Positions 1,844 to 47,140 of a DNA stretch of 64,000 nt are shown one piece after another. The first letter of the stretch is position 1; every line of letters begins with the position of its first letter. The stretch is from contig JARIGK010000004.1 of the NCBI GenBank assembly GCA_029288895.1, positions 175,866-239,865 of the forward strand, read 5' to 3'. The notes beneath the pieces are model-generated. The model worked only from the letters and a program-made list of their open reading frames with translations. It was not told the origin of the DNA and searched no databases. The position numbers and the translations under genes are program-made. Source of the DNA: Candidatus Adlerbacteria bacterium (GTDB lineage Bacteria; Patescibacteriota; Minisyncoccia; Phycocordibacterales; SBAW01).

Positions 1844-1859
1844 ATACGCCCTCGTGTAG

Positions 1860-3875
<2,016 letters not shown>

Positions 3876-21411: not shown

Positions 21412-21436
21412 AGCCCTAATGGTATAGTTGGAGTAT

Positions 21437-23056
21437 ATGAGTATGTTGAGCAGGGTATTTGGCCGTGTCCGCGCGTGGGCATGGTACTCCAAAGTTGCTG
21501 CGGCAGTAGCGGTTGTTGCTGTTGTGGGCGTGGGCGTGCATGCACTGACGCGCACCAATGACGCTACTACTACAACGCCACAAGTGTCGCACGTGCGCGA
21601 AGCATCCGTTGCGAGCCTTTCGTCGCAGAGCGTGGGGCCATTGCCTGTCGTGGGCAACGTGACATCGCTCGATCATGCAACACTGCTTGCGCAAACGTCT
21701 GGTCCTGTGACGAGCCTTTCGAAATCGCTTGGTTCGTACGTCGCCGCGGGCGGCGTGATAGGCGAGCTTGAAAACAGCGCCCAGCGCGCAGCCGTACTCC
21801 AAGCACAAGGTGCGTACGAAGCAGCGCAAGCGTCATTTGCAAACACCAGCGGGACGTCGGCGCAAAACTCTGGCATCGGTGCAAATCAGGCAGTGCAAAA
21901 TGTGGCAAACACACAAGCAAGTGCAAACACTGCGATGCAAAGCCTCTACTCGGCGCTCGACGACGCGGTGCATACCAAAGCCGACCTTTTGTTTACTAAC
22001 CCGCGCACTAATGCAACGCTTTTGCTGACGACAACCGACAGCCAGCTTGCTATTACCTTGCAGAACGAACGTGTCGCACTTGAGCACACGCTTTCGAATG
22101 CAAACAGCAAAGCAAATGCATCAACGCGCGCGGACACTGACGCTGACATCACAACGATGGCCGCGTATGGGCAGGCGACGGTAACCTTCCTTAACCATTT
22201 GGTCGAGGCGGTAAACAAAGCGCTGCCTACAGAAACTGTCACAGCGGCGCAAATTTCCGGGTACCAAACATCCATTGCTGCGGCACGCACCGAAGTAGTG
22301 AGTGCGCTCTCGAGCCTTTCGTCGGCAAAAACAGCGTATGATGCCGCGGTGGCAAGCGCTGCAACGGCAAGCAACACTGCGGGCACTGGCACAGCAAACA
22401 GCATTAGCGCAGCCGGGGCGCAGGTGACGCAGGCACAAGGCGCACTTGATGCTGCACGCTCGGCGCTTGAAAAAACAATCATCCGCTCGCCGATTTCCGG
22501 CACCATTGTAAGTTTGCCCATTACGCGCGGCGGCTTTGTCACTGCGGGCTCGCAAGTGGCAGTCGTCTCAAACCCAGGCGCTTTGGAGGTTGATGCGTAT
22601 GTAACGCCAAGCGATGCGAAGACCATTGTCGTCGGTGGCGTGGCAACCATAGGGCAGGGCACCCGCGGCGTTATCGTTTCTATTGCACCAGCGCTCGACC
22701 CAACCATCGGCAAAATTTTGGTAAAGATTGGTATTCCGGGCAGCCAAGCAGCGCTCACCGATGGTGACACCGTCTCTGTCACACTCGCACGCTCGACGCC
22801 GGCACAGGTCAAACAACAAACAAAGACGCCAGAAGGTACGGTGCTTATTCCGATAGTTGCAGCAAAAATTACGCCTCAAGGCCCCGTCGTCTTCCAAGTG
22901 ACTGCGTCATCGACTTTGCACAGCATCCCTGTGACGCTCGGCACTATTTTGGGCGAACAAGTTACCATCACAAGCGGTCTTACCCCTGACATGAGTATCG
23001 TTACCGATGCGCGCGGGCTCTCCGATGGCGACACGGTCGTCGTCGACACTCAATAA
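21437..23056 (+). CDS. Efflux periplasmic adaptor (HlyD/membrane fusion protein family), long form
   Basis: N-terminal TM helix, very long Ala/Thr/Gln-rich helical region, C-terminal beta-barrel motifs (IRSPISGTIVSL, VVSNPGALEVDAYV); 3 nt upstream of the RND gene. Confidence 0.8.
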   Translation: MSMLSRVFGRVRAWAWYSKVAAAVAVVAVVGVGVHALTRTNDATTTTPQVSHVREASVASLSSQSVGPLPVVGNVTSLDHATLLAQTSGPVTSLSKSLGSYVAAGGVIGELENSAQRAAVLQAQGAYEAAQASFANTSGTSAQNSGIGANQAVQNVANTQASANTAMQSLYSALDDAVHTKADLLFTNPRTNATLLLTTTDSQLAITLQNERVALEHTLSNANSKANASTRADTDADITTMAAYGQATVTFLNHLVEAVNKALPTETVTAAQISGYQTSIAAARTEVVSALSSLSSAKTAYDAAVASAATASNTAGTGTANSISAAGAQVTQAQGALDAARSALEKTIIRSPISGTIVSLPITRGGFVTAGSQVAVVSNPGALEVDAYVTPSDAKTIVVGGVATIGQGTRGVIVSIAPALDPTIGKILVKIGIPGSQAALTDGDTVSVTLARSTPAQVKQQTKTPEGTVLIPIVAAKITPQGPVVFQVTASSTLHSIPVTLGTILGEQVTITSGLTPDMSIVTDARGLSDGDTVVVDTQ

Positions 23057-23059
23057 CCT

Positions 23060-26000
23060 ATGTTGTGGCTGTGGAATTTCTTCCTGGAGCGCAAACAATT
23101 TAGCTACGTCCTTATTGCGACGCTTGTTATTGCAGGGTTCTATGCGCTTTTGCAGATCCCAAAAGAAAATGCGCCGTCTATTGTCATCCCCAACGGCATC
23201 GTTACGGTTGCCTTGCCGGGCGCCTCGGCCGAAGATATCGAGCGCCTCGTCACGAACAAACTCGAAGATCAAATTTCTGGTCTCTCGAACCTCGACACCA
23301 TTTCATCAAACTCAAGCGATGGCGTTTCCGTACTAAACGTACAATTCAGCGCAAACGCCGACGTCAACCAATCGATCCAAGACCTGCGCGACGCAGTAGC
23401 CAAAGCGGTGCCTAACTTGCCGCAAGATGCCACGGCGCCGCAAGTCAGCAAGATCGATATCACCAATCAACCTATTCTTGTTGTTTCGATTTCGGGCGAC
23501 CTGCCATTGCCAGCATTTTCTGCCTTGGGCACATCAGTGTCGGATGACTTGAAGAGCATCCCTGGAGTTTCGGAAGTGGATGTTACTGGCGTGCCAGATA
23601 GAGAGGTGGATGTCATCGTCAGCAAAGAACAGCTCGAGCGATATGGCTTGCGCTTGGTTGATGTGATTGGCGCTATCTCGTCTGCAAACGCTGCGGCACC
23701 TGCAGGCAGCATTTCGATAAACGGCGTTAACTACACCGTGAACTTTAAAGGCGGCATCGACGACCCGTCCGAAATACAAAACATTGCGGTTGGCTCCAAA
23801 AATGGCGTGCCGATTTATGTGCGCGACATAGCAGTCGTCTCCGACGGCCTGGCACCTGCAAAAACATATTCGCGCCTCTCGCTTGGCGGCAAACCAAGCA
23901 ATCAAGCCATGACGCTTATGGTCTACAAGCAGTCGGGCGCGAGTGTGCAAGGTGTTGCCAACGCTGCAAAGAAAAAAGTCGAAGCGTTGAAAGGCACATC
24001 GCTCAAAGGCCTCGATGTGTTTATCTCGCCGTCGACAGACCAGGGCGTGCAGGTTTCAAAGCAGTTGGGCGACTTGGCCGAAACAGGGCTCGAAACTGTC
24101 GCACTCGTGCTCATTGTGCTCTTTATCACTATCGGTTGGCGCGAGTCTGTTGTGGCAGGGCTCGCTATCCCGATGTCCTTCCTTATCGCGTTTATCGGGC
24201 TCTACCTTACCGGCAATACGCTTAACTTTATTTCGCTCTTTGCACTTATTTTAGCCGTCGGCATTTTGGTCGACTCTGGCATCGTCGTGACGGAAGCCAT
24301 CCATGCACGCCGTCCATTATTTAAAGACTCGATGGATGCTGCACGCGCGGCACTCCACGACTACGCGTGGCCGCTTATCGCGGGCACCATGGCGACAGTG
24401 GCCGTGTTCGCACCGCTCTTCTTTATCTCGGGCATCGTTGGCAAATTTATCGCTGGTATTCCGTACACGCTTATCTTTGTGCTCATCGCATCGATCTTCG
24501 TGGCGCTTGGTATTGTGCCGCTCATTGCCGTGCTTTTTTCGTCGAGCCAAACGCAGAGCCGTTTGGAGGAGCTCCAAGAAATGTATACCGAAAAGACAAC
24601 GCATTGGTATAAAGAAAAATTGCGCATCATGCTCGAGAGTAAACGCGCACAGCGCCTCTTCTTGCGCGGGCTTGCGGCGCTCTTTGTGTTGTCGCTCGCG
24701 CTGCCATTTACGGGTTTGGTGCAAACAACATTCTTCCCGCAAGACGACCAAGATTTTGTCTACATAAACATCCAAAAACCAGAAGGCACGACGCTTGCAC
24801 AAACAGATTTGACTGTGCGCGAGGTGGAAGAGATCTTGTACAAAAACAGCGATATCTCGTCGTTTGAAACAACCGTTGGCCAAAGTTCTGGGCTTACGGG
24901 CTCGGGCTCGTCCGGCAGCAACCAAGCAAACATCACAGTAAACTTGCCGCTTGGCCACAAAAAGACAAGCACCAGCATTTCAAACGAATTAACACAGCAG
25001 CTTGGCGTTATCACCGATGCAGATATTCAAGTGCTCCAGGCAAACAATGGGCCATCGTCGGGCGCGCCGATTCAAATACAGTTTAAAGGCGAGAATTTAA
25101 ATGACTTGATCACCGCAGCACAAGCAGGGAAGCGATTGCTTGCAAGTATGCCGGATGTCAAAAATATCACTGACACGACGCAAAACAATGGCACTGCGTT
25201 TGACTTGAGCATTGACCGTGGGAAAGCAACGGCGCTTGGCCTCTCGACACAAATGGTGGCGCAAACATTGCGCGCCGCGATCCAGGGCGCCAAGGCCACA
25301 AGCATCACAGAGCCGCAAAAAGATATCGACGTTATCGTAAAGCTCAACCTAAACACCAACTACATCGACCCGTCCGACACGACGCGCACCACGATTGATG
25401 CAATTAAAAATCTTTCGATCCAAGGCAGCACGGGCCCTGTGCTCTTGGGCTCGGTGCTCACAGACAGCCTGGGGCAGAGCAACGCAGCAATTGCCCACAA
25501 AGACAAAGTACGTATTGAAACAGTATCGGCATACCCGAGCGACAACACAACGGCCAATGCCGTAGTCGGCGCGTTCCAAAAACGCCAAAGCGAACTGATT
25601 TTGCCCGAAGGCGTGACGGCTTCGTATGGCGGCGAAACACAAGACGTAAATAAATCATTTACAGAAATGTTTCTCGCGCTTATCGCGGGGCTCGTGCTTA
25701 TGTTTATGATCCTCATCATTTCATTTAACTCGATCCGCCACACGCTCCAACTGTTGCTTATCGTGCCGCTCTCGCTCATCGGCGTCTTGGATGGTTTGGC
25801 GCTCACGGGGCAGCCGGTGTCGTTTACCTCGCTCCTTGGCATCATTGCGCTCGGCGGCGTCATCATTAACCACGCCATTATATTGATGGACTCAATGATC
25901 CATCAGCTGCATGCGCACCCGGACAAGTCGCTCGTTGATATTGTCGTCGACTCATCTGCAACGCGCTTGCGCCCGATTGTGCTGACAACTATTACTACTG

Positions 26001-26161
26001 TTGTGGGTATGATCCCGCTCGCGCTGTCGAATGCTACATGGGGTCCGCTGGCGTACGCTGTGATGTTTGGCTTGACCTTCGCTATCTGTCTCACGCTTGT
26101 GCTCGTGCCAGTGCTCTTCTTCCGCTATCACACGCGCATGCGCGCAAAAGCAACGCACTAG
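23060..26161 (+). CDS. RND-family efflux transporter permease (AcrB-like)
   Basis: 1033 aa, 12-TM architecture with two large extracytoplasmic loops; AcrB-type motifs (SLFALILAVGILVDSGIVV...). Confidence 0.9.
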   Translation: MLWLWNFFLERKQFSYVLIATLVIAGFYALLQIPKENAPSIVIPNGIVTVALPGASAEDIERLVTNKLEDQISGLSNLDTISSNSSDGVSVLNVQFSANADVNQSIQDLRDAVAKAVPNLPQDATAPQVSKIDITNQPILVVSISGDLPLPAFSALGTSVSDDLKSIPGVSEVDVTGVPDREVDVIVSKEQLERYGLRLVDVIGAISSANAAAPAGSISINGVNYTVNFKGGIDDPSEIQNIAVGSKNGVPIYVRDIAVVSDGLAPAKTYSRLSLGGKPSNQAMTLMVYKQSGASVQGVANAAKKKVEALKGTSLKGLDVFISPSTDQGVQVSKQLGDLAETGLETVALVLIVLFITIGWRESVVAGLAIPMSFLIAFIGLYLTGNTLNFISLFALILAVGILVDSGIVVTEAIHARRPLFKDSMDAARAALHDYAWPLIAGTMATVAVFAPLFFISGIVGKFIAGIPYTLIFVLIASIFVALGIVPLIAVLFSSSQTQSRLEELQEMYTEKTTHWYKEKLRIMLESKRAQRLFLRGLAALFVLSLALPFTGLVQTTFFPQDDQDFVYINIQKPEGTTLAQTDLTVREVEEILYKNSDISSFETTVGQSSGLTGSGSSGSNQANITVNLPLGHKKTSTSISNELTQQLGVITDADIQVLQANNGPSSGAPIQIQFKGENLNDLITAAQAGKRLLASMPDVKNITDTTQNNGTAFDLSIDRGKATALGLSTQMVAQTLRAAIQGAKATSITEPQKDIDVIVKLNLNTNYIDPSDTTRTTIDAIKNLSIQGSTGPVLLGSVLTDSLGQSNAAIAHKDKVRIETVSAYPSDNTTANAVVGAFQKRQSELILPEGVTASYGGETQDVNKSFTEMFLALIAGLVLMFMILIISFNSIRHTLQLLLIVPLSLIGVLDGLALTGQPVSFTSLLGIIALGGVIINHAIILMDSMIHQLHAHPDKSLVDIVVDSSATRLRPIVLTTITTVVGMIPLALSNATWGPLAYAVMFGLTFAICLTLVLVPVLFFRYHTRMRAKATH

Positions 26162-26224: not shown

Positions 26225-26824
26225 ATGTACAAAATTCTCATAGGCGGATTGATTATTGTTGTTGCGTTCTGTACGCACCTGCAGTCCGCAAGCCCAAGCG
26301 ATGCTATCCCGCAGATTCCTGATGCGGGCACTGTAGTTTCTACGTCGAGCGCGCCGACATCGCACGAAGACGTCCATGTAACCCCGACCGTAGCGCATGT
26401 ACCTGTGCGTGTGCGCATACCCGCACTCAATCTAAATGATGCGGTGGTGCCAGTTGGGCTTACACAGGACGGCGCTATGGATGTGCCGCCGGGCAACACA
26501 AAGAATGTTGGCTGGTACGAGTACGGCACCGTGCCAGGCGACATAGGAAGTGCGGTGTTTGATGCACATGTGTTTGCTGCATTTTCGAAGCTCTACAAAT
26601 TAAAAGCAGGGGACGACATCTACGTCACGCTCATGGATGGACGCGAAGAGCATTTTACTGTTGAAGAGACAAACGTATACGCACTCGGTGATGTTCCTGC
26701 GGAAGCACTCTTTGCGCGTGCGGATACACAGAGGCTCAACTTGATTACATGCGAAGGCAAACTCACGCGCGACCGCTCGACCTACGACCATAGGCGCATT
26801 ATCTCTGCGACGCTCGTGCAATAA
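26225..26824 (+). CDS. Sortase-family transpeptidase
   Basis: N-terminal anchor, catalytic His context (AVFDAHVF), TLxTC active site (RLNLITCEG) and conserved Arg downstream. Confidence 0.7.
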   Translation: MYKILIGGLIIVVAFCTHLQSASPSDAIPQIPDAGTVVSTSSAPTSHEDVHVTPTVAHVPVRVRIPALNLNDAVVPVGLTQDGAMDVPPGNTKNVGWYEYGTVPGDIGSAVFDAHVFAAFSKLYKLKAGDDIYVTLMDGREEHFTVEETNVYALGDVPAEALFARADTQRLNLITCEGKLTRDRSTYDHRRIISATLVQ

Positions 26825-26828
26825 ACAA

Positions 26829-26856
26829 AGCCCCATAGAAGGGGCTCTGTTGTGTT
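26829..26856. terminator. Terminator hairpin between convergent genes
   Basis: AGCCCC-atagaa-GGGGCT followed by CTGTTGTGTT. Confidence 0.45.
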
Positions 26857-26879
26857 ACGAGAGTTTGGATCGGTTCCGT

Positions 26880-27227
26880 CTATGAGCGAAGTGCGATCTT
26901 GCGCTGGCGTGCTAGATATACTGCAGCGCCGCCCGCGATAAGTGCACTGCCGCCAAGTGTTGCCCATGCGCCAAGTGCATCGCCGCCCAACCCTGTGTTT
27001 GGCGTGCCTGGCGTTGTGCTCATGGTGCCACTCGTGCCTGAGGTGCCAGTAGTTCCGGTTGTGTTAGTAGTGCCCGTTGTTCCCGTTGTGTTTGTGGAAC
27101 CGGTTGTACCAGTCGTACCCGTTGTGCTGCTGCCAGTAGTCTGTGCAAACGCGACGCCGCTGCCCAAGAGCAACGTTAGTGCGACTGCGGCACTTCCTGC
27201 TTTAATCCCAAGTGTGCGTAGAGTCAT
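26880..27227 (-). CDS. Small secreted Thr/Gly-rich repetitive protein with a C-terminal PNTG sorting signal (sortase substrate)
   Basis: Signal peptide MTLRTLGIKAGSAAVALTLLLGSGVAFAQT; TTGTTG-type tandem repeats; C-terminus TPNTG + hydrophobic stretch + RQRK. Confidence 0.6.
   Translation of the reverse strand: MTLRTLGIKAGSAAVALTLLLGSGVAFAQTTGSSTTGTTGTTGSTNTTGTTGTTNTTGTTGTSGTSGTMSTTPGTPNTGLGGDALGAWATLGGSALIAGGAAVYLARQRKIALRS
27040..27160. repeat. Short in-frame tandem repeat tract (9-12-bp GT/AC-rich units) inside the 26880..27227 gene
   Basis: Visible reiteration ...ccagtagttccggttgtgttagtagtgcccgttgttcccgttgtgtttgtggaaccggttgtaccagtcgtacccgttgtg... Confidence 0.6.
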
Positions 27228-27380
27228 AGAAGATGTAGTGTTAGCGAGTTAGTAATTCGTAATTCGCACATGAGAGTCCAGTATAGGTTGCATGTACTGA
27301 ACGCGAGGTGAACGAACGCATGATTTGCTCACTCAAAAACTCGTGGTTGAGCTTGATTCATCAAATCTACAGAATGTAAG

Positions 27381-28416: not shown

Positions 28417-29565
28417 ATGGCGGCGAAGAAGAAAACATTTTTAAAGACACACGATGCTCTACTGTACGCCGCAGCTATTCTCTTTGGATGTGCTCTGTGC
28501 TGCGGGCTCGCGTACGCGGCAAGTTACGTGAGCCCCTTTGCCGTGAAGTATGTGGGCGGCGCGGCCGCCGCGGACGCTGCTACAACCACCGCGGGGAGTG
28601 CTACGCAGCCATCATCACAGCCTCCGCTCGACATCAATGCATATAACACCAAGCTTCTTTTCTTGGCGCACGTTGCAACATCAAGTTCGTGGTACCAATA
28701 CTTTTTGACAGGCACCACAACTGGCACCACGACGCCAAAAAAACAATTGTGGCCGGTGAAGACTACGTACCCGAACCCTGGCGCATTACTGCCGAACAAT
28801 CGCATCGTCGCGTATTACGGCAACTTCTACTCCAAAGGTATGGGTGTGCTCGGCGAGTATCCAGAAGATGTCATGATCCAAAAACTGAAGGATGCGGTAG
28901 CGGGGTGGCAAGCGGCCGACCCGTCAACGCCTGTTATCCCCGCAATTGATTACATCGATGTCACGGCACAGGGGAGCCCGGGCAAAGACGGCAAGTATCG
29001 CTTGCGCATGCCCGACAGCCAAATCGATAAAGCGATTGAGATCGCAAACAAAGTACACGGCATTGTGATTTTGGATGTGCAGGTTGGGTTGAGCAATTTG
29101 CAAAGCGAACTGCCGTTGCTTTCGACATACTTGGCGATGCCGAATGTGCACCTCGCAATTGACCCTGAGTTTGCGATGCACGGCGGCACCCCGCCTGGCC
29201 GTGTTATTGGGACGATGAGCTCGGCCGATGTAAACTACGCTGCCAATTTCTTGGCCGACCTGGTGAAGAAAAATAATCTGCCGCCAAAAATTTTGATTGT
29301 GCACCGATTTACAGAAGAGATGGTGACGGGATACGGGAATATCAAACCATTGCCTGAGGTGCAGATCGTGATGGACATGGACGGCTGGGGCTTTCCGGCA
29401 AAAAAGATTAATACGTACAATTCGGTTATCTATTCTGAGCCCGTACAGTTCACTGGCTTTAAACTCTTCTACAAAAACGACATCAAACCGCCAAGCAAGG
29501 CGATGATGACTCCTGCCGAAGTACTCAAGCTCACACCTGCGCCGTTATTTATTCAGTATCAATAA
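28417..29565 (+). CDS. Hypothetical membrane-anchored extracellular protein
   Basis: N-terminal TM (LLYAAAILFGCALCCGLAYAA), Thr-rich linker, ~280-aa globular domain (possibly TIM-barrel hydrolase-like; not recognised confidently). Confidence 0.5.
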   Translation: MAAKKKTFLKTHDALLYAAAILFGCALCCGLAYAASYVSPFAVKYVGGAAAADAATTTAGSATQPSSQPPLDINAYNTKLLFLAHVATSSSWYQYFLTGTTTGTTTPKKQLWPVKTTYPNPGALLPNNRIVAYYGNFYSKGMGVLGEYPEDVMIQKLKDAVAGWQAADPSTPVIPAIDYIDVTAQGSPGKDGKYRLRMPDSQIDKAIEIANKVHGIVILDVQVGLSNLQSELPLLSTYLAMPNVHLAIDPEFAMHGGTPPGRVIGTMSSADVNYAANFLADLVKKNNLPPKILIVHRFTEEMVTGYGNIKPLPEVQIVMDMDGWGFPAKKINTYNSVIYSEPVQFTGFKLFYKNDIKPPSKAMMTPAEVLKLTPAPLFIQYQ

Positions 29566-40083: not shown

Positions 40084-40803
40084 ATGCCGCTTGTTATTGG
40101 CATCGCTGCAGCTCTCTCAACGCTTGTTGGGGGAGCTGTTGCGTTACGATTGCGCGACCGCTTGCACTTGATATTGGGGTTTAGCGCGGGGGCAGTTATT
40201 GCTGTTGCATTCTTTGACCTATTGCCTGAAGCGCTCACGTTGGGCGGCAGAGCGCACGAGCTTTCGACTGTCACGTCATTCGTGGCGCTTGGCTTCTTAC
40301 TCTACTTGTTGCTCGACCGGTTGCTTGTATTGCACAGCCACGGCCATGCGGACGATGCCGAGCATGATCATTCGCGCGGCCACGTGCGTGCAGGCTCACT
40401 TTCGCTCCACAGTTTTCTCGACGGTGTAGGTATTGGTTTGGCATTCCATGTGTCGCCCACGGTTGGCTTCCTTGTTGCGGCAGCGGTCTTGGCGCACGAT
40501 TTCTCGGACGGCATCAATACAGTTAATGTCTTGGTACGCCACGGCGGCACAAAAGCACAGGCAATGCGATGGCTTGTTGTCGACGCACTCGCGCCCATTG
40601 CGGGCATCATACTGACGATGTTTATAAATGTGGGCGAAGGTACGCTTGGCCTGCTTCTTGCGCTCTTCTCTGGCTTCTTCCTCTACATTGGCGCGTCGGA
40701 CTTGATTCCCGAAAGCCATCACGTACACCCAACCTTCTGGACTACCTTTATGACCCTCTTGGGCGCACTCGTTCTCTTTGTCGCAATCTCAATCGCAGGC
40801 TAA
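40084..40803 (+). CDS. ZIP-family metal transporter (ZupT-like)
   Basis: His-rich loop HSHGHADDAEHDHSRGH, HSFLDGVGIG and LAHDFSDG metal-binding TM motifs. Confidence 0.75.
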   Translation: MPLVIGIAAALSTLVGGAVALRLRDRLHLILGFSAGAVIAVAFFDLLPEALTLGGRAHELSTVTSFVALGFLLYLLLDRLLVLHSHGHADDAEHDHSRGHVRAGSLSLHSFLDGVGIGLAFHVSPTVGFLVAAAVLAHDFSDGINTVNVLVRHGGTKAQAMRWLVVDALAPIAGIILTMFINVGEGTLGLLLALFSGFFLYIGASDLIPESHHVHPTFWTTFMTLLGALVLFVAISIAG

Positions 40804-42290
40804 GCCTCGACCATAATAGGTTCGTCCAATTTCTTTTCGGGGACGCGGAGGAAGAGTGCTGCAAAGGCGCCTACGGCAAGAAGGGAAGCGGCGGTGATAA
40901 ATATCACGGCGTACGCGTCTATCTGCGCTTTTAATTCGATAAGTGTAATAAACTGTTGCGTCGCAGCTTTGGTGTGTACGTTGAGCAGGCTGTTTTGAGC
41001 GATCTTGAGCACGTTGTTGTTTGTGGTGCTCTGGAGCAATGTGCCAAAGAGCGCGATGCCGAATGCGCCCGCGATATTTCTGCCAAGCGCCAAGATAGAT
41101 GATGCGACGCCGATTTCTTCCTGCGGCACAATCGCAGCAATCGCGTTTGTGCGCTGCGCCATACCAAAGCCCAACCCAAAGGCCATTACGAACATGGGGA
41201 TCATAATGTCGATGGCCGTGGAACGTACATCAATAAATGAGAAAAGGTAGAGGCCAAACGCCGCAACAATCGTTGATGCAAAAATCACATAGCGCGGCTG
41301 CACGCGGCCTGTGAGTGCGCCGCCGATGGGCGCCGCAAACATCATTGCAAATGCCATCGGCATAAAAAGGTAGCCCGACTCCGTGGCATCGTATGCAAGG
41401 AATGTTTGTGCAAATACGGGGATAAGGAAGATGCTGCCCATAAGGCCCATAAAGACGAGGAAGTTGTTGCCAAGCGTGTTGATGAAGGTCCAGTTTTTAA
41501 AGAACTTCAAATCCACGATTGGCTCCGGATGTCGTTGTTCGATATATACAAAGATGGTTGTGGCAACAACAACGGTGATATAGCAGAGGATGCTGTTAAG
41601 CGAGAGCCAGCCCCAGTCGGTACCTTGGTCGAGCACAAAGACGAGGCTCGATAGCGCAATGCCCAATACCGACGCGCCCCACCAGTCGAAGCCTTTTGGC
41701 TTCTTTTCGTTTTTTGATTCCTCGATATAGATGATTGCCAAAATCATGCCGATGACGCCCACCGGGATGTTGATGAGGAAGACCGAGCGCCAGCCAAAGC
41801 TGTCGATAAGCGGGCCGCCTACAAGCGGGCCAAACACTGCTGCAGCGGCAAACGACGACGACCAAATGCCGAGTGCCTGCGCGCGCTCTTTACCCTCGCG
41901 GAAGGTAAACGCGATGATTGCCATGGCGGTGGGGTAGTCGGCGGAACCTGCAATTGCTTGGATGACGCGGAAGACAATCATGGAACCCAAGTTCCACGAA
42001 AGGCCTGCGAGCGCCGAGCCCACGATAAACATCGCAAAGCCTGTGAGATAGACGCGTTTGCGCCCTATGGTGTCGCCGAGCTTGCCCCAAATCGGCACAA
42101 AGACTGCGTTAGCCAAGATATAGGCAGTTGCGATCCAGCCTGCGGCCGAGACCGTGATCGAAAAGTCATTGATAATTTTGGGCAGCGCCAAGTTAACGAT
42201 GGTCTGGTCGAGCCGACCAAGAAACGTACCCATTATCACCGTCAGCAATATCATCCAACGGTACGGATTTTGCGTCGTACCTTCTGGCAT
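40800..42290 (-). CDS. MFS transporter, DHA2 (EmrB/QacA) family, 14 TM
   Basis: 496 aa; motif A-like GRLDQTIVNLALPKI, G-x-LGDTIGRKR. Confidence 0.85.
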   Translation of the reverse strand: MPEGTTQNPYRWMILLTVIMGTFLGRLDQTIVNLALPKIINDFSITVSAAGWIATAYILANAVFVPIWGKLGDTIGRKRVYLTGFAMFIVGSALAGLSWNLGSMIVFRVIQAIAGSADYPTAMAIIAFTFREGKERAQALGIWSSSFAAAAVFGPLVGGPLIDSFGWRSVFLINIPVGVIGMILAIIYIEESKNEKKPKGFDWWGASVLGIALSSLVFVLDQGTDWGWLSLNSILCYITVVVATTIFVYIEQRHPEPIVDLKFFKNWTFINTLGNNFLVFMGLMGSIFLIPVFAQTFLAYDATESGYLFMPMAFAMMFAAPIGGALTGRVQPRYVIFASTIVAAFGLYLFSFIDVRSTAIDIMIPMFVMAFGLGFGMAQRTNAIAAIVPQEEIGVASSILALGRNIAGAFGIALFGTLLQSTTNNNVLKIAQNSLLNVHTKAATQQFITLIELKAQIDAYAVIFITAASLLAVGAFAALFLRVPEKKLDEPIMVEA

Positions 42291-42293
42291 AGA

Positions 42294-42941
42294 TTAGTTT
42301 TTGTAGACCCAGATCTTTGCGGACATACCGTTTTTGAGTTCGGGATGTGCCGCGGTGTCGAAGCGAACTTTGACGTCGAAGTCTTGTTCTTGGCGTTTGT
42401 CGGAGATGTTAAAGACAACATCGCCCGACTCTGCGCTTGGGGCGACCTCGTCAACAATGCCGGTATATTTTTGCCCGCCGAATGCATCGACAGTAAACTC
42501 TGCGCGTTGGCCAGCATGGATATCGACGAGGCCTTTGTCTTCTGCAATTTGGCCTACGACGCGCAACTGTGTCGGGTCGATTACTGCGACGACTGTTTCG
42601 TTTTGGCCAATTGATTTGCCGATGTTGTTATTGGTGGTGATCACAAGCCCGCCGTTTTGCGATTTGATAAGTTCGGTGCCGACCTGTGCTACTACAGTGT
42701 TTGGCGCAATAGTGTCGCCTTCGTGCACATAGACTGCTTTTAATATGCCGCTTGCGCCAGGGCCCAAGTCGACAACAGGCGCTTCGATCTGCGATTTGTC
42801 GATGTAGACAGTCTTCGATGCCGCGGCAAGGTATGCAGCGCCTGCGATGCCGCCGCCTATGACGATGACAAGGAACGCGGCAAGGACAAGCACGCGGCGA
42901 TCAAGACCTTTCTTTTCTTCTGTTGGTTGTGTAGGTGCCAT
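42294..42941 (-). CDS. HlyD/EmrA-like membrane fusion protein, short form
   Basis: N-terminal TM, biotinyl-lipoyl-like hairpin (ILKAVYVHEGDTIAPNTVVAQV) and beta-barrel C-terminus; 215 aa; 3 nt upstream of the MFS gene. Confidence 0.7.
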   Translation of the reverse strand: MAPTQPTEEKKGLDRRVLVLAAFLVIVIGGGIAGAAYLAAASKTVYIDKSQIEAPVVDLGPGASGILKAVYVHEGDTIAPNTVVAQVGTELIKSQNGGLVITTNNNIGKSIGQNETVVAVIDPTQLRVVGQIAEDKGLVDIHAGQRAEFTVDAFGGQKYTGIVDEVAPSAESGDVVFNISDKRQEQDFDVKVRFDTAAHPELKNGMSAKIWVYKN

Positions 42942-42946
42942 AAAAA

Positions 42947-44521
42947 TTATTTTGAATTCACGAGATACTGGTCGCCCGCAGAAAGACCCGAGGTAACTTC
43001 AATGTTGGTATCGTCAGCGATGCCTGTTTGGATTTGTTTCTCGATTGGGGTTTTGCCGCCCGGCACGAGCACGAATGTGTTTGCGCCATTTTGCAATACT
43101 GCGCTTTTCTGTATCACCACAACGTTCTGTTTCTGTGCAGCTAAGATCGTCGCATTCGCACCCATGCCTGTTGAGATGCTTTCGTCATTGTTTGTAAACT
43201 GGAGTACGACTTTGTACCCAGACATGCCGCTCTCTGTCGTAGGGGAGCGGTCGATAGACGCAACCGTTGCGGGGAAGATCTTGCCGCTGCCGTAGGCATC
43301 GAGCGTCACCTGCGCGCTGTCTCCCGTCTGTAACTTTGCAACATCAACTTCGCTCACGTAGAGCTTCACCTGCAAGGCGCTTTGTGGTGTAAGCGACACG
43401 GCAACGGTATTTGGTGCGACTGTTTGGCCCGCCTTTACATTGACGCTGGCGACAGTGCCGGAAAACGGCGCGACGATAATATTATTTGCAATTTGTGCTT
43501 CTATACTTGCGACCTGCGCCTTTGCTGCATCAACTTGCGCTGTCTGTGCTGCGATGTCTTGGCTCGTTGCGCCAGCTTGGATCTTGTTGAGTGCATCTTG
43601 TGCCGACTGCACTGCCAATTTGCCCGATGCAATTTGCTGCTGCGCGCCTTGCAGAGAAAGTATGAGTGAACTTGCGGTGCTGTTGAGTGTGCTGACTGAC
43701 GTTTGTGCTGTTGCAATCTGTGCGGCAGTGAAATTGCTTGACGGTACGGCATTTGCAAGTGCTTGGAGAAGCGTGCTCGTGTATGTGCGCACGTTTGTCA
43801 GTTGTACGATAGAGGCAGAGAGCGCTGCATCAATTGTGTGGGCGTCAGATGCGGTGTTGAGCGAATCTATCGTCGAACTCCAGGATGGAAGCTGCACATT
43901 CAAGGTGGTGCGAGCATTCGAAGCATCCACCGCAGCCTGGCTGTTTGATGTTTGGAAGGTAACGGTAGGCTGCGGCATCGTTGGTTGGTTAAAGAGTGCG
44001 TCTGTATTTTGGCGCACGCCATTGTAGGTTTTGTTGTATGCGTCTGTCAGCGTTGCGGGGATGTTGGCGTATACATTGGCAAGCGACTGCTGTGCTTGTG
44101 CGACTGCAGTTTGGCCTGATTGGACATCGGTGGCGCGGGCGCCTGCGTTTAAGGAGTCGAGCTTTGCCTGTGCTGCTTCGACATTAGCCTCTGCCATTGC
44201 TTCTTGCGCATGCAAACTTGCGGTGTCGAGTGCTGCGAGTACCTGGCCTTGGTACACCTGTGCACCAACGGATGCATGGACTGAAACGACACGGCCGCCG
44301 CCTACAAATGCGAGATTAGGGTTTTGTGAAGGTTCGACAGTGCCTGAGCCCGTGACAGTTTCGTTAATTGAACCCATCTCAACCGTAGCAACAGACGACT
44401 GGGGTGAGCGAGTTGAGACGAAGTAATACACACCGCTACCCAAGGCGATGACAACAACCGCTCCAAGCGCACTCATAACAAGCGGGTGGGCGAGAACTTC
44501 TTTTTCAAAAAATGATTTCAT
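42947..44521 (-). CDS. HlyD-family periplasmic adaptor, long coiled-coil form
   Basis: 524 aa; N-terminal TM, lipoyl-like (GTVEPSQNPNLAFVGGGRVVSVHASVGAQVYQGQVLAAL), ~300-aa Ala/Gln-rich coiled coil, C-terminal barrel. Confidence 0.7.
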   Translation of the reverse strand: MKSFFEKEVLAHPLVMSALGAVVVIALGSGVYYFVSTRSPQSSVATVEMGSINETVTGSGTVEPSQNPNLAFVGGGRVVSVHASVGAQVYQGQVLAALDTASLHAQEAMAEANVEAAQAKLDSLNAGARATDVQSGQTAVAQAQQSLANVYANIPATLTDAYNKTYNGVRQNTDALFNQPTMPQPTVTFQTSNSQAAVDASNARTTLNVQLPSWSSTIDSLNTASDAHTIDAALSASIVQLTNVRTYTSTLLQALANAVPSSNFTAAQIATAQTSVSTLNSTASSLILSLQGAQQQIASGKLAVQSAQDALNKIQAGATSQDIAAQTAQVDAAKAQVASIEAQIANNIIVAPFSGTVASVNVKAGQTVAPNTVAVSLTPQSALQVKLYVSEVDVAKLQTGDSAQVTLDAYGSGKIFPATVASIDRSPTTESGMSGYKVVLQFTNNDESISTGMGANATILAAQKQNVVVIQKSAVLQNGANTFVLVPGGKTPIEKQIQTGIADDTNIEVTSGLSAGDQYLVNSK

Positions 44522-44543
44522 ACGTTGTTTGTAAAATATTGCG

Positions 44544-44957
44544 CTAATTGGTTTCTAATATCTTTTTCAATATTCGCTGCATATCGCTATGGTCTTTATC
44601 CGAGAGGCTCTGTAGCATACCGTGGAGGATTTTCTTGCGCTTATTCATAATTGTTGCAAGCTCCGTCGTCGCCTTCTTCGTTACTTTGATATGTACTTGC
44701 CTGCGGTCGTCCTTATTTGTCTCACGCACAAGATAGCCTCCGTCTACAAGTTGGTTTACCAGCGCCGTGGCCGATGGCGCGCGGATGTGGAGGTGTATGG
44801 CTACAGCGCTCATAAGAGGGGAGCCTTGTTCTTGGACAAAGCGCAGCACTTCAGCCTGGGTAAATGACACGCCATCTTCGACGGCGACCAGTTTCTTTTT
44901 CATTTTTCGTCCAGCGTCCAGAAACAGCTCGACGGTTGTTTCGCTTTTGTTCGACAT
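44544..44957 (-). CDS. MarR-family transcriptional regulator
   Basis: wHTH QAEVLRFVQEQGSPLMSAVAIHLHIRAPSATALVNQLVDGGYLVRETNKDDRR. Confidence 0.8.
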   Translation of the reverse strand: MSNKSETTVELFLDAGRKMKKKLVAVEDGVSFTQAEVLRFVQEQGSPLMSAVAIHLHIRAPSATALVNQLVDGGYLVRETNKDDRRQVHIKVTKKATTELATIMNKRKKILHGMLQSLSDKDHSDMQRILKKILETN

Positions 44958-45159: not shown

Positions 45160-46074
45160 ATGACATTCCGCCCACTCGTAGTTTCATTGATTGCCGCTGC
45201 TGCGGTAGCTATGCCGTTTGTTGCGTCAGCACAGACTGCGCCGTATTCGCAACTTATGATTACAACCCACGTGGCGCCTGGCACGCCAGCTCCCCAGGTG
45301 GCGCCGATTGTCACCATCCAGGCGACTATCCCGCAAATTTCGAATGTTGCGAATACAAGCTCGTCGCAGGCAAGCTATCCTGCAAACTTTAACGGCGAAG
45401 TGCGCACGGTAAACTTTGTTCCGGGCAGCTACGCTGTGTGGGCCTCTGGCGCTCCGGGGTACTACTTTACGTACTCGCAGGATTGCTCGGGCTTTACTCC
45501 TGCAAATGGCGGCAATGGTATCCGCGGCTGCACTATTACACTTTCCAACACGCCGCCTCCGCCTGCGTACAATTGCATTACCTGGTTTGGTAGCAATTCG
45601 TGCATGGCGCCCGTTGTCCCGTACTCGGGGCCTCTTGGCCAATCGCAGCTTACCTGCGCACCGACCTACCAGACTATTTCTGCAGGCCGCCCGGCAACCT
45701 TTACTGCTGAGGGTGGTAACCAGGGTGGGTACAACTGGACCACGACCGACCGCACCTCGCTTAACGTCGGCACGTCGTTTACAACCGTGCTCCAGACCAC
45801 GGGCGTACAAACTGTCATCGTTTCCAATGGCGTACAAAATGCGACCTGCACCGTAAACGTTGTCGCGGGTGCAGCAGGCACAGCTATTACTTACGCTGGC
45901 TCGCAGACTGGCGCACCATCTGTTACCTCAAACTACATCCCAGCATACTTGCCGAACACAGGCTTTGGCCCGCTTGATAGCGCATCGCTCGCATTTGCGC
46001 TCGTCCTCCTCTTGGCTGTTGGTTTCGTCACTGCCCCATATGTCAGAAAAGCCCTTACTGCTGCCCTCGGCTAA
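45160..46074 (+). CDS. Cell-surface protein with a C-terminal LPNTG sorting signal
   Basis: Signal peptide, Thr/Pro-rich region, C-terminus YLPNTGFGPL + hydrophobic stretch + RK tail; sortase gene starts 2 nt downstream. Confidence 0.65.
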   Translation: MTFRPLVVSLIAAAAVAMPFVASAQTAPYSQLMITTHVAPGTPAPQVAPIVTIQATIPQISNVANTSSSQASYPANFNGEVRTVNFVPGSYAVWASGAPGYYFTYSQDCSGFTPANGGNGIRGCTITLSNTPPPPAYNCITWFGSNSCMAPVVPYSGPLGQSQLTCAPTYQTISAGRPATFTAEGGNQGGYNWTTTDRTSLNVGTSFTTVLQTTGVQTVIVSNGVQNATCTVNVVAGAAGTAITYAGSQTGAPSVTSNYIPAYLPNTGFGPLDSASLAFALVLLLAVGFVTAPYVRKALTAALG

Positions 46075-46075
46075 G

Positions 46076-46747
46076 ATGGCAACGCTTGTTCGTGAGTCGG
46101 AAGTCCGCGCATGGGCACGGATGGTTCTTATCGCTGTCGGGTTTGCTGTCATTGCGCTTGGTGTGTTTGCCGCACTGAACAAACTCTCGTCGTATGTCAG
46201 CGTTGATGCAACGCAAACAGCATTTGCGCCGCTTGGTACGCTCACGACAAAAAATATAAATATCGCGGCACTGCCCGCATATGTCTCGACGACGACGCCC
46301 ATTACGCCGGTGCGTTTGAAGATCCCGTCGATTGGCGTGGATGCGCACGTAGAGCGTGTTGGCAAAAAAGCCGATGGCTCGATGGCAACTCCAACGTCCT
46401 TTGAAGATGCTGGCTGGTACGAATTGGGTGCGCACCCAGGGCAGGCGGGCAACGCAGTCATTGCGGGCCACGTCAACAATGCGCTCACCAAGGCAGGAGT
46501 ATTTGAACATTTGAACGCCGTAAAAGTAGGCGACTATGTGACTGTTACAGACGCTTCGGGAAAGACGCTTGTGTACGTTGTTTCAGAAACGCATCAGTAC
46601 GCAACAAACGAAGCACCTACAGCATCTATCTTTGCGGTTACGGGCCCATCACAGCTCGTGCTCATCACTTGCGACGGGGCCTGGGATGACGCATCGCACT
46701 CCTACGACAAGCGCCTTGTCGTCTTTGCCCGCCTCACGTCTAAATAA
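46076..46747 (+). CDS. Sortase-family transpeptidase
   Basis: N-terminal TM, catalytic His (NAVIAGH), TLxTC (LVLITCDG), conserved Arg (FARL). Confidence 0.75.
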   Translation: MATLVRESEVRAWARMVLIAVGFAVIALGVFAALNKLSSYVSVDATQTAFAPLGTLTTKNINIAALPAYVSTTTPITPVRLKIPSIGVDAHVERVGKKADGSMATPTSFEDAGWYELGAHPGQAGNAVIAGHVNNALTKAGVFEHLNAVKVGDYVTVTDASGKTLVYVVSETHQYATNEAPTASIFAVTGPSQLVLITCDGAWDDASHSYDKRLVVFARLTSK

Positions 46748-46891: not shown

Positions 46892-47140
46892 ATGGCACGC
46901 AAATTGTTCATCGGTGGCCTTCCTTACCGCACTACGGGGGATGAGCTCCGTGACGCGTTCGCACAGGCAGGTGAAGTCGTTTCGGCTTCTATCGTCACCG
47001 ATCGCGAAACCGGCCGCTCACGCGGTTTCGGCTTCGTCGAAATGGCAGATGATGCTGCAGACAACGCTATCGCTATGTGGAACGGCAAGGACTTCGGTGG
47101 TCGTATGCTCACCGTTTCCGATGCACGTCCTAAGGCGTAA
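46892..47140 (+). CDS. RRM-domain RNA-binding protein
   Basis: RNP-2 KLFIGGL and RNP-1 RGFGFVEM; 82 aa; long AT-rich 5' leader. Confidence 0.8.
   Translation: MARKLFIGGLPYRTTGDELRDAFAQAGEVVSASIVTDRETGRSRGFGFVEMADDAADNAIAMWNGKDFGGRMLTVSDARPKA

What the first reader, a model, noticed from the sequence alone, without database searches (positions are those of the whole stretch)
26225..27227. Sortase with adjacent tiny repeat-built PNTG-anchored substrate; second sortase-substrate pair at 45160-46747
Two sortase genes (TLxTC: LITCEG, LITCDG) each sit next to a protein ending in x-PNTG + hydrophobic segment + basic tail: LPNTG in the 304-aa surface protein, TPNTG in the 115-aa protein. The small substrate is almost entirely (T/S/N)TG(T)n tandem repeats, encoded by short GT-rich DNA repeats at 27040-27160. 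Such repeats are prone to slipped-strand length variation, making a candidate phase- or length-variable surface fibril. PNTG rather than LPXTG/LAXTG specificity hints at a distinct sortase class.
Basis: partly seen in the sequence, partly recalled or inferred. Interest (0 to 1): 0.55.

Follow-up and report, generated by a model that had tools for sequence, protein, structure and literature searches.

The report
Two sortases with neighbouring wall-anchored substrates
An uncultivated ultra-small (CPR/Paceibacterota) bacterium carries two ordinary sortase–substrate gene pairs; one substrate belongs to a large unnamed family of tiny threonine-rich wall-anchored peptides, and nothing indicates that its repeat is phase- or length-variable.

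Summary
Both sortase genes and both neighbouring substrates are real. Sortase 1 (26225-26824) and sortase 2 (start corrected to 46040, end 46747) have the sortase domain and a His-Cys-Arg triad. Both score best as class F sortases, but below NCBIfam's cut-off. The only two x-PNTG + hydrophobic + basic tails in the window lie next to them.

The 115-aa ORF (26880-27227, minus strand) is a conserved gene. It belongs to a family of at least 628 sequence clusters of 60-230-aa proteins. Each has a signal peptide (AxA|QT), an uncharged Thr/Gly/Ser-rich segment (median 49 aa) and an extended signal, TPG-x-PNTG-AGG-D. No Pfam or NCBIfam model covers the family. A sortase sat next to it in all seven species-level contexts examined from the substrate side.

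The 304-aa protein is a conserved surface protein with two Ig-like domains and an invariant LPNTGF(G)P signal. Its gene is overlapped at its end by that of its own sortase.

The slipped-strand idea is not supported. The DNA repeat is degenerate, and no length variants appeared in a related population. PNTG is conserved, but LPNTG and IPNTG are already known sortase motifs.

Verdict: a new member of a known kind, of moderate to low interest.

The parts
26225..26824 (+). Sortase 1: 199 aa, N-terminal membrane anchor (MYKILIGGLIIVVAFC), class-F-like catalytic domain with His115, Cys176 (LITCEG) and Arg190.
   Evidence: Pfam PF04203 E 2.6e-17. NCBIfam class F 111 bits, best by more than 80 bits but below the cut-off of 166. 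H115, C176 and R190 are invariant in 32 homologues. The AlphaFold model (pLDDT 81) matches solved sortases of classes C, D and E at E about 1e-9 to 1e-10.
26829..26846 (.). GC-rich hairpin between the convergent sortase 1 and small-substrate genes. It has a U-run on the minus-strand RNA and is a likely shared (bidirectional) intrinsic terminator.
   Evidence: Terminator scan. RNA fold -21.1 kcal/mol, z = -4.6, 0 of 200 shuffles as stable.
26880..27227 (-). Small sortase substrate, 115 aa: signal peptide + Thr/Gly/Ser/Asn-rich uncharged segment + TPNTG sorting signal. No globular domain, i.e. a 'headless' wall-anchored peptide.
   Evidence: ORF. 21 homologues by word search and 628 cluster representatives by profile search. 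Syntenic orthologue in L005/L006. 11 of 34 C-terminal codons differ only synonymously, with a third-position excess. No Pfam hit.
27144..27227 (-). Predicted Sec signal peptide, residues 1-28, with cleavage predicted after AFA, before Gln29.
   Evidence: Read from the sequence. A-Q is invariant in the family alignment. AFAQT, ASAQT and AHAQT dominate. No signal-peptide predictor was available.
26994..27143 (-). Predicted mature peptide, residues 29-78 (50 aa): QTTGSSTTGTTGTTGSTNTTGTTGTTNTTGTTGTSGTSGTMSTTPGTPNT. Its DNA is only a degenerate 9/27-nt periodic repeat.
   Evidence: Codon table; the repeat finder family D1, 67-79% identity; TRF.
26883..27005 (-). Cell-wall sorting signal, residues 75-115: TPNTG, then LGGDALGAWATLGGSALIAGGAAVY (hydrophobic), then LARQRKIALRS. 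Cleavage is predicted between Thr78 and Gly79.
   Evidence: Six-frame scan. Family position table TPG-x-PNTG-AGG-[DN]-A-x-x-N.
45160..46074 (+). 304-aa wall-anchored surface protein: signal peptide, two Ig-like beta-sandwich domains (about 30-130 and 165-235) with conserved cysteines, and an LPNTG sorting signal (45949-46071).
   Evidence: 27 homologues, hypothetical or unnamed where a name is given. Invariant L264-P265-N266-G268 and six invariant or nearly invariant Cys. AlphaFold pLDDT 71.6, domains about 86. Foldseek best hits are tandem Ig domains, E 1e-5.
46040..46747 (+). Sortase 2: 235 aa, class-F-like (LITCDG). Its start overlaps the last 35 nt of the substrate gene, which suggests translational coupling.
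   Evidence: Pfam E 6e-25. NCBIfam class F 139.5 bits, below the cut-off of 166. The N-terminus MSEKPLLL aligns with relatives' starts. Substrate-sortase-RRM-HhH-GPD synteny in L067-L070.

Best explanation
The window comes from a Paceibacterota (Parcubacteria, CPR) genome. It holds two separate cell-wall anchoring cassettes, each made of a class-F-like membrane sortase and its own neighbouring substrate.

Cassette 1. The 115-aa precursor is exported by Sec and its signal peptide is removed after AFA. The C-terminal hydrophobic segment and basic tail hold it in the membrane. Sortase 1 cleaves TPNT|G and transfers the 50-residue, uncharged, Thr/Gly/Ser-rich peptide to the peptidoglycan precursor. 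The result is a domain-less, hydrophilic and probably O-glycosylated peptide decorating the wall. In effect it is only the 'wall-spanning' part of a classical LPXTG protein.

Cassette 2. The 304-aa protein with two Ig-like domains is anchored in the same way through LPNT|G by the translationally coupled sortase 2, and probably serves as an adhesin.

The two substrates carry different extended signals: TPG-x-PNTG-AGG-D versus [YF]LPNTGF[GA]P. The two sortase clades are about 35% identical. Each enzyme is therefore probably dedicated to its neighbour.

Shown: the genes, domains, motifs, conservation and gene linkage.
Inferred: cleavage, wall attachment and enzyme-substrate assignment.
Speculative: glycosylation and the physiological role.
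For: - Sortase domains, class F as best model, and an invariant His-Cys-Arg triad.
- The only two sorting signals in the window lie beside the only two sortases.
- A sortase lies next to the small protein in every context reached from the small-protein side or by synteny: the window, L001, L003, the P0019 locus, L005, L055 and L065.
- The Ig-protein/sortase pair and its downstream synteny are conserved.
- Sortases next to small proteins include a 46-74%-identical clade containing sortase 1. Sortases next to Ig proteins form a 68-74%-identical clade containing sortase 2. Identity between the two clades is about 35%.
- Small family: 628 cluster representatives; PNTG in 94%; the extended block is conserved; mature part is 30% T, 15% G, 12% S, 0.1% K and no Cys.
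- The substitution pattern is that of a coding sequence, and a terminator follows the gene.
- CPR sortases are known to be common (PMC6744442).
Against: - There is no experimental evidence for cleavage or anchoring in any CPR organism.
- Both sortases fall below NCBIfam's class F cut-off.
- No LPXTG-anchor model appeared among the NCBIfam hits listed for the small protein at E <= 1.
- Starting from the sortase side, only 7 of 48 sortase-1-like loci have a small-family gene within 3 kb. Linkage is therefore frequent but not obligatory. The sortase may serve other substrates as well.
- L013, L017 and L020 have two different sortases flanking the small gene, which weakens a one-enzyme-one-substrate reading.
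- There is no clear Shine-Dalgarno sequence before the small ORF.
- Glycosyltransferase neighbours occur in only 2 of 7 contexts.
Confidence: 0.72

Rival explanations
1. One reading: the small gene is a contingency locus. Slipped-strand mispairing in its tandem repeat changes repeat number (length variation) or frame (phase variation) of a surface fibril.
For: - The protein-level (T/S)TG periodicity corresponds to a 9-nt period and a weak 27-nt duplication.
- The low-complexity segment differs greatly in length between species: 20-170 aa overall, and 21 vs 50 aa between syntenic orthologues.
- A truly hypervariable 9-mer repeat gene does exist in another CPR lineage (bioRxiv 10.1101/595074).
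Against: - Copies are only 67-79% identical, and all synonymous Thr codons are mixed. The longest exact repeated word is 10 nt and is not tandem.
- Twelve other family genes have repeated words of 10 nt or less.
- No length change was seen wherever the gene is complete, or across the low-complexity stretch in 9 of 10 contigs from 10 samples that share an identical sortase.
- P0009 is identical on at least 24 contigs, and all 10 clusters checked at 90% identity are singletons.
- Units are multiples of 3 nt, so slippage could not switch the frame.
- Caveats: the tested population is nearly clonal, assemblies hide minority variants, and the window's own species could not be found in other samples.
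Confidence: 0.05
2. The functional product is not the wall-linked peptide but the sorting signal itself. Either the sortase reads an unusually long recognition element, or the membrane-retained C-peptide (GAGGDAxxN + TM + RR) released by cleavage acts as a signal or a sortase regulator. The Thr-rich part would then be a disposable spacer.
For: - Conservation peaks around and after the cleavage site (A78, G98, G89, D/N76, A70, N75 %), while the mature part is free to vary in length and sequence.
- 12 of 161 members repeat the TPGxPNTG element 2-6 times.
- From general knowledge, not checked here: streptococci sense the C-peptides of sortase A substrates through a membrane circuit.
Against: - The strong compositional constraint on the mature part (30% Thr, almost no charge) argues that it is selected too.
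- No sensor kinase is consistently linked. One was seen, in L003 only.
- Extended recognition and wall anchoring are not mutually exclusive.
Confidence: 0.12
3. The small protein is a sortase-polymerised pilin or a collagen-like (Gly-X-Y) fibre subunit.
For: - x-PNTG signals with a non-Leu first residue, and dedicated neighbouring sortases, are typical of pilins (IPNTG of GBS80; PMC3166054).
- Gly recurs every third residue over short stretches.
Against: - Mature peptides lack the Lys nucleophile that pilin polymerisation needs. K is 0.1% of residues, and only 4 of 136 peptides have any.
- There is no folded pilin domain.
- The longest uninterrupted G-x-y run is 4 triplets here. The median is 2 across 163 members, and only 3 have 6 or more.
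- The syntenic orthologue has no G-x-y periodicity.
- No Pfam Collagen hit.
Confidence: 0.03
4. The 115-aa ORF is not a gene but a chance ORF in low-complexity DNA, or the real gene is the opposite-strand ORF 26899-27252.
For: - Gene callers sometimes skip it or call the opposite strand (L057, L058).
- The exact protein is not on record as a called gene.
- There is no Pfam hit.
Against: - Signal peptide and sorting signal are conserved full-length in hundreds of clusters.
- It keeps its position next to sortases.
- Synonymous and third-position differences are in excess.
- A terminator lies downstream on the minus strand.
- The look-up also failed for the sortase, which is demonstrably in the NCBI record. 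That absence therefore says nothing.
Confidence: 0.02

Closest known systems
Class F sortases (NCBIfam NF033748 / InterPro IPR042001). The only characterised enzyme is Cutibacterium (Propionibacterium) acnes SrtF.
   Same: - Class F is the best-scoring class for both enzymes, by a wide margin.
- Same small size, N-terminal membrane anchor and His-Cys-Arg triad.
- NCBI names relatives in Paceibacterota 'class F sortase'.
- As for actinobacterial class F enzymes, the physiological role is unknown (PMC13251363).
   Different: - Scores of 111 and 139.5 bits are below the curated cut-off of 166.
- The host is a CPR bacterium, not an actinobacterium.
- P. acnes SrtF is described as a housekeeping LPXTG enzyme (PMC8225981). 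Here each enzyme sits beside one substrate with its own extended signal.
- The Foldseek PDB hits named sortase classes A, C, D and E, never class F.
Classical LPXTG cell-wall sorting signal and sortase A anchoring (Staphylococcus, Streptococcus). LPNTG occurs there, e.g. in S. thermophilus PrtS.
   Same: Tripartite signal of pentapeptide, hydrophobic segment and basic tail, plus an N-terminal signal peptide. The 304-aa protein's LPNTG is a plain LPXTG.
   Different: - In the small family position 1 is V/T/A/L/I, with Leu in only 13%.
- Asn at position 3 is 94% conserved.
- The P' side (AGG-D/N) is conserved.
EF0750/EF2685 family of small sortase-dependent surface proteins of Enterococcus (NCBIfam NF053819, profile length 105)
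   Same: About 100-aa precursors consisting of little more than a signal peptide, a short low-complexity segment and a sorting signal. This was the only weak NCBIfam match, covering nearly the whole profile (residues 15-110 against profile positions 13-105 of 105).
   Different: The match is E 0.0098 and 16 bits against a cut-off of 47, so the window protein is not a member. The host phylum and the signal also differ.
SspA of Actinoplanes missouriensis: an intrinsically disordered, sortase-dependent spore-wall protein
   Same: A sortase substrate whose whole mature part is predicted to be disordered, with no domain. It has a demonstrated structural role at the wall (PMC13293333).
   Different: SspA is anchored by a class E sortase, and its four class F sortases are dispensable (PMC13251363). 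No sequence relationship was tested or is claimed.
Pilus-specific class C sortases and their neighbouring pilins (GBS80, signal IPNTG)
   Same: A dedicated sortase encoded next to its substrate, and an x-PNTG signal with a non-Leu first residue (PMC3166054).
   Different: The substrate here has no pilin fold and no Lys nucleophile. The sortase scores only 15-28 bits against class C.
Hypervariable PTD-repeat surface gene of a Gracilibacterium (CPR)
   Same: A CPR surface protein built from a 9-nt-period, Thr-containing repeat (bioRxiv 10.1101/595074).
   Different: In that gene a few exact 9-mers recur and variation broke the assembly. Here the 9-mers are degenerate, the assembly is continuous and no population variation was seen.

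Membership tests
Sortase superfamily (Pfam PF04203) | Sortase domain scoring above Pfam's gathering threshold | tested here: met
   Sortase 1 scores 63.2 bits and sortase 2 scores 87.8 bits, against a cut-off of 26.6. The predicted fold of sortase 1 matches solved sortases at E about 1e-9 to 1e-10.
Sortase superfamily (Pfam PF04203) | Catalytic His, Cys (TLxTC-type motif) and Arg | tested here: met
   H115, C176 (LITCEG) and R190 are invariant in 32 homologues. The equivalents are conserved in sortase 2 and its relatives.
Class F sortase (NCBIfam NF033748) | Whole-protein score at or above the curated cut-off of 166 bits | tested here: not met
   Scores are 111.2 and 139.5 bits. Class F is still the best class by more than 80 bits, and NCBI names a 62%-identical relative 'class F sortase'. 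The enzymes are therefore called class-F-like.
Class F sortase (NCBIfam NF033748) | Transpeptidase activity on an LPXTG-type peptide | not testable with these tools
   This needs recombinant enzyme and peptide assays.
LPXTG-type cell-wall sorting signal proteins | N-terminal signal peptide plus C-terminal pentapeptide, hydrophobic segment and positively charged tail | tested here: met
   Both substrates show all parts by direct reading. In the small family the tail after the motif Gly has a median of 33 residues, with a median of 3 basic residues among the last 10. No signal-peptide predictor was available.
LPXTG-type cell-wall sorting signal proteins | Canonical L-P-x-T-G pentapeptide | tested here: inconclusive
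   The 304-aa protein has LPNTG, so it meets the feature. The small protein has TPNTG, and its family has Leu at position 1 in only 21 of 161 members. No LPXTG-anchor model appeared among the NCBIfam hits listed at E <= 1.
EF0750/EF2685 small sortase-dependent surface proteins (NF053819) | Score at or above the cut-off of 47 bits | tested here: not met
   16.4 bits, E 0.0098.
Contingency (slipped-strand) loci | Tract of identical or near-identical short tandem DNA repeats | tested here: not met
   TRF finds none, or only 27 nt x 2.4 copies at 76% match. The longest exact repeated word is 10 nt.
Contingency (slipped-strand) loci | Repeat-number polymorphism within populations | tested here: not met
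   Tested in relatives only. No indel was found across 10 contigs of one population, and the 90% clusters are singletons. The window's own species was not found elsewhere. Power is limited.
Sortase-assembled pilins | Pilin-motif lysine nucleophile and a folded pilin (CnaB/Ig) domain | tested here: not met
   The window peptide has no Lys, and K is 0.1% of residues across the family. The mature part is low complexity only.
Bacterial collagen-like proteins | Long uninterrupted Gly-X-Y tract | tested here: not met
   The maximum is 4 triplets here, and the family median is 2. No Pfam Collagen hit.

The most novel reading that the evidence does not exclude
The small proteins define an undescribed, widespread CPR envelope component. 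They would be peptidoglycan-linked, uncharged, Thr-rich and probably O-glycosylated peptides of 20-100 residues. A dedicated class-F-like sortase would install them by reading an extended ~15-residue signal (TPG-x-PNTG-AGG-D). They would act as a protein-based wall polymer, functionally analogous to wall teichoic acids or a mucin brush, on ultra-small episymbiotic bacteria. This would also give class F sortases their first natural, genetically linked cognate substrate.
Probability: 0.2. Interest if true: 0.6.

Novelty: new member of a known kind. Interest (0 to 1): 0.35.

Why it matters
Sortase anchoring itself is textbook, and sortases are already known to be common in CPR bacteria. What is new and useful is a large family of tiny wall-anchored peptides that has no name and no model. 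It has at least 628 clusters at 50% identity, no Pfam or NCBIfam model, and gene callers often miss it. Its sorting signal is sharply conserved and it is repeatedly encoded next to class-F-like sortases.

Class F sortases have no established physiological role, and only one has been characterised. A conserved neighbouring substrate gives a concrete peptide to test specificity with. It is also a candidate abundant component of the poorly understood CPR cell envelope.

The negative result matters too. Low-complexity protein repeats encoded with mixed synonymous codons should not be read as phase-variable loci.

Tried and rejected
- Exact look-up of the small protein and of the window's sortase (P0022) in the gene-position index: neither is on record. 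This says nothing, because P0022 is in the NCBI protein set.
- Two exact-DNA scans of JGI metagenome contigs, with a 26-mer from the small gene and a 27-mer from sortase 1: 0 hits. Within-species repeat variation of this organism could therefore not be tested. A relative's population was used instead.
- PDB sequence search: nothing for sortase 1, and only weak class C/D hits for sortase 2. A fold search was needed to confirm the fold.
- Collagen-like reading: rejected on G-x-y run lengths.
- Pilin reading: rejected because there is no Lys and no fold.
- 'Not a gene', or the opposite-strand ORF 26899-27252: rejected on conservation and substitution pattern.
- O-glycosylation support from neighbouring genes: glycosyltransferases sit next to the pair only in L001 and L003, not in the window or four other contexts. 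Too weak to count as evidence.
- The long ORF from TTG 45860 as sortase 2: rejected in favour of ATG 46040.
- Literature searches for CPR/Patescibacteria sortase substrates and for V/T/A-PNTG motifs found no description of this family. The library covers open-access papers only, so this is absence of evidence.
Full report
**1. What is in the sequence**

- The ORF at 26225-26824 (+) encodes a 199-aa protein with a Pfam Sortase domain (E 2.6e-17). It has an N-terminal hydrophobic anchor and the motif LNLITCEG.
- Convergent with it, 55 nt away, is the ORF 26880-27227 (-). It encodes 115 aa: MTLRTLGIKAGSAAVALTLLLGSGVAFA | QTTGSS...TPGTPNT | GLGGDALGAWATLGGSALIAGGAAVYLARQRKIALRS.
- Between the two genes lies a GC-rich hairpin at 26829-26846. 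Its fold energy is -21.1 kcal/mol (z = -4.6), and it looks like a shared terminator.
- The second pair is a 304-aa protein (45160-46074, +) ending in YLPNTG + hydrophobic segment + PYVRK, followed by a sortase (Pfam E 6e-25, LVLITCDG).
- By alignment with relatives, sortase 2 starts at ATG 46040 (MSEKPLLL...). It overlaps the substrate gene by 35 nt.
- A six-frame scan of the whole window finds only these two x-PNTG + hydrophobic + basic tails. phmmer finds only these two sortases, which are 35% identical to each other.

**2. The DNA repeat claim**

- At protein level, residues 29-78 are T/G/S/N low complexity with a loose three-residue period.
- At DNA level the repeat is degenerate. Thr is encoded by ACT x7, ACA x6, ACG x5 and ACC x4. 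Gly is encoded by GGC, GGT and GGA.
- The longest exactly repeated word is 10 nt, and its two copies are 87 nt apart.
- The Tandem Repeats Finder tool reports nothing in the tract.
- The repeat finder gives seven 24-nt copies at 9- or 27-nt spacing that are only 67-79% identical.
- A local TRF run on the coding strand gives a 27-nt period x 2.4 copies at 76% match.
- Twelve other genes of the family likewise have no exact repeated word longer than 10 nt.
- This is a poor substrate for slipped-strand mispairing. All units are multiples of three, so frame switching is excluded.

**3. Host and sortase class**

- The nearest sortase 1 relative (62% identity) and many others come from Candidatus Paceibacterota, Parcubacteria or Patescibacteria MAGs.
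- L005 and L006 are syntenic with the window: AcrB, sortase, convergent small ORF, ClpP, KGG protein.
- Against NCBIfam, both enzymes score best by far as class F. Sortase 1 scores 111 bits (next best class 28.6) and sortase 2 scores 139.5 bits (next best class 42.6). Both are below the curated cut-off of 166.
- NCBI's own annotation calls relatives 'class F sortase'.
- His115, Cys176 and Arg190 are invariant in 32 homologues.
- An AlphaFold model of sortase 1 (pLDDT 81) matches solved sortases of classes C, D and E at E about 1e-9 to 1e-10, with 24% identity or less. No hit was described as class F.
- I therefore call them class-F-like, not a new class.
- Sortases are already known to be enriched in CPR (PMC6744442).
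- Class F enzymes have no known physiological role. Only the P. acnes enzyme, an LPXTG enzyme, has been characterised (PMC13251363, PMC8225981).

**4. The small protein is a conserved gene and founds a large family**

- A word-based search found 21 small proteins (80-157 aa) with the same three-part layout.
- A profile search of 1.84 billion cluster representatives found 628 at E <= 1e-3 and 208 at E <= 1e-10. The 150 listed are 60-225 aa long, and most are matched nearly end to end.
- The signal was located in 161 of 162 family sequences. In those 161 it reads T-T-P(93%)-G(87%)-x-P(100)-N(94)-T(100)-G(99)-A(78)-G(98)-G(89)-[D/N](76)-A(70)-x-x-N(75). The x before Pro is V 40%, T 19%, A 13% or L 13%.
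- The predicted mature peptides have a median of 49 aa (range 20-170). Their composition is 30% Thr, 15% Gly, 12% Ser, 9% Ala, 7% Pro and 6.5% Asn, with 0.1% Lys, 0.4% Arg, 0.2% Glu and no Cys.
- The syntenic orthologue in L005 is only 86 aa, with a 21-residue mature peptide, QTTTTTSTTDTTGATVGVPNT.
- Between the two orthologues, 11 of 34 C-terminal codons differ only synonymously. Differences by codon position are 9, 8 and 19.
- No Pfam model matches. The only NCBIfam hint is a sub-threshold match to the EF0750/EF2685 small sortase-dependent proteins of Enterococcus.
- Where sources give a name it is 'hypothetical protein', or an obviously wrong one.

**5. Linkage to sortases**

- Starting from small proteins, or from synteny, a sortase is the immediate neighbour in every case looked at. 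These are the window, L001, L003, the P0019 locus, L005/L006, L055-L064 and L065. Orientation is either co-directional or convergent.
- Starting from sortase-1-like genes in one genome per species, 7 of 48 loci have a small-family gene within 3 kb. Two more have large proteins ending in KLPNTG or TAPNTG.
- Linkage is therefore recurrent but not universal. Genomes without a neighbouring copy could not be searched beyond the flanks.
- The Ig-like 304-aa family keeps its sortase directly downstream, with overlapping genes. It also keeps the same downstream RRM and HhH-GPD genes as in the window.
- In an identity matrix, sortases beside Ig proteins form one clade (68-74% identical) that contains sortase 2.
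- Sortases beside small proteins include a clade (46-74% identical) that contains sortase 1, plus a looser second group. The sortase 1 and sortase 2 clades are about 35% identical to each other.
- Together with the two different extended signals, this favours dedicated enzyme-substrate pairs. In L013, L017 and L020, however, two different sortases flank the small gene.

**6. The 304-aa protein**

- There are 27 homologues of about 300 aa in Adlerbacteria and other Patescibacteria. Where a source gives a name it is 'hypothetical protein'.
- They have invariant L-P-N-(T)-G-F and six conserved cysteines.
- AlphaFold predicts two beta-sandwich domains (about 30-130 and 165-235, domain pLDDT about 86). 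They are joined by disordered linkers and followed by a C-terminal helix.
- Foldseek returns generic tandem Ig domains at E about 1e-5.
- It is an ordinary Ig-fold wall-anchored surface protein, plausibly an adhesin.

**7. Test of length variation**

- The window's own species was not found in JGI metagenome contigs.
- As a proxy that is unbiased with respect to the small gene, I looked up a related sortase (P0046) by exact sequence. It lies on at least 13 contigs, and 10 from 10 samples were retrieved.
- The convergent small gene has the same length wherever the whole gene lies on the contig (7 contigs). The low-complexity stretch is in register in 9, with a single Ser-to-Gly substitution in two of them (L061 and the truncated L063).
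- That population is nearly clonal (0-2 SNPs per about 600 bp), and assemblies are consensus sequences. The power of the test is therefore limited.
- P0009 is identical on at least 24 contigs, and all ten family clusters inspected at 90% identity are singletons.
- Between species the tract length changes a great deal. That is slow turnover of a compositionally constrained spacer.

**8. Mechanism**

- Shown: the genes, domains, signals, conservation and linkage.
- Inferred from the established sortase pathway:
  - Sec export and signal-peptide removal.
  - Retention in the membrane by the C-terminal segment.
  - Thioacyl cleavage between Thr78 and Gly79.
  - Transfer to the peptidoglycan precursor.
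- The product would be a 50-residue uncharged Thr-rich peptide on the wall. In effect it is the wall-spanning region of a classical LPXTG protein without a head.
- O-glycosylation is plausible from composition alone. Neighbouring glycosyltransferases occur in only two contexts.
- Unexplained: the strong conservation on the P' side (GAGGDAxxN), and the 12 members with 2-6 copies of TPGxPNTG.

**9. Comparison and verdict**

- LPNTG is a plain LPXTG (for example PrtS).
- IPNTG is the signal of the GBS80 pilin handled by a dedicated class C sortase (PMC3166054).
- Small or fully disordered sortase substrates are known: the EF0750 family and SspA (PMC13293333).
- The finding is a new member of a known kind: two class-F-like sortase cassettes in a CPR genome.
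- Its modest added value is the large, unannotated family of tiny Thr-rich substrates with an extended x-PNTG signal.
- Interest is 0.35.

Noticed in passing
window 21428-26161; 40800-44957: An HlyD-type membrane-fusion protein (21428-23056) and an AcrB-type RND pump (23060-26161) lie directly upstream of sortase 1. A second HlyD-type protein (42947-44521), an MFS transporter (40800-42290) and a MarR regulator (44544-44957) lie upstream of the second pair. These are parts of tripartite efflux systems, in a CPR bacterium presumed to lack an outer membrane. AcrB-sortase synteny is kept in L005/L006.
   Followed up: partly
window 28417-29565 (+): A 382-aa protein with an N-terminal hydrophobic segment, no Pfam hit and a short TGTTTGTTTP stretch. 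An unannotated 374-aa gene (no Pfam hit) sits at the same position in L005 (7010-8134).
   Followed up: no
P0256, P0006; L011 2637-3065: Some small-family members carry 2-6 tandem copies of the TPGxPNTG element (P0256 has six). These are possible internal sortase sites or a polyprotein-like precursor.
   Followed up: partly
L013, L017, L020 (about 1350-3500 in each locus): The small substrate gene is flanked by two sortase genes from different clades, 35-38% identical to each other.
   Followed up: no
L020 2249-2728; L022 2275-2784; P0276, P0286, P0307: A subfamily inserts a Tyr/Gly-rich module (...GDGTYYNP..GGSVYDPTG...) between the Thr-rich part and the sorting signal.
   Followed up: no
L057, L058 (2199-2606); P0009: Gene callers skipped the small ORF or called an opposite-strand ORF in some assemblies. 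One source names the 96-aa P0009 'UDP-N-acetylmuramyl tripeptide synthase', which is evidently a mis-annotation.
   Followed up: partly
window 26560-26600 (sortase 1 residues about 113-125): Sortase 1 has a six-residue gap just after the catalytic His relative to sortase 2 and its relatives (HVFAA------FSKL versus HVNNALTKAGVFEHL). The motif DAHVFAAF is conserved among its homologues. This might bear on specificity.
   Followed up: no
window 26899-27252 (+): The opposite strand of the small gene carries a 117-aa ORF rich in PVV repeats. It is a mirror artefact of the low-complexity coding strand.
   Followed up: yes
window 46892-47140 and 47204-47935: A small RRM-type RNA-binding protein gene and an HhH-GPD glycosylase gene follow sortase 2. 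The order substrate, sortase, RRM, HhH-GPD is conserved in Adlerbacteria-like relatives.
   Followed up: partly
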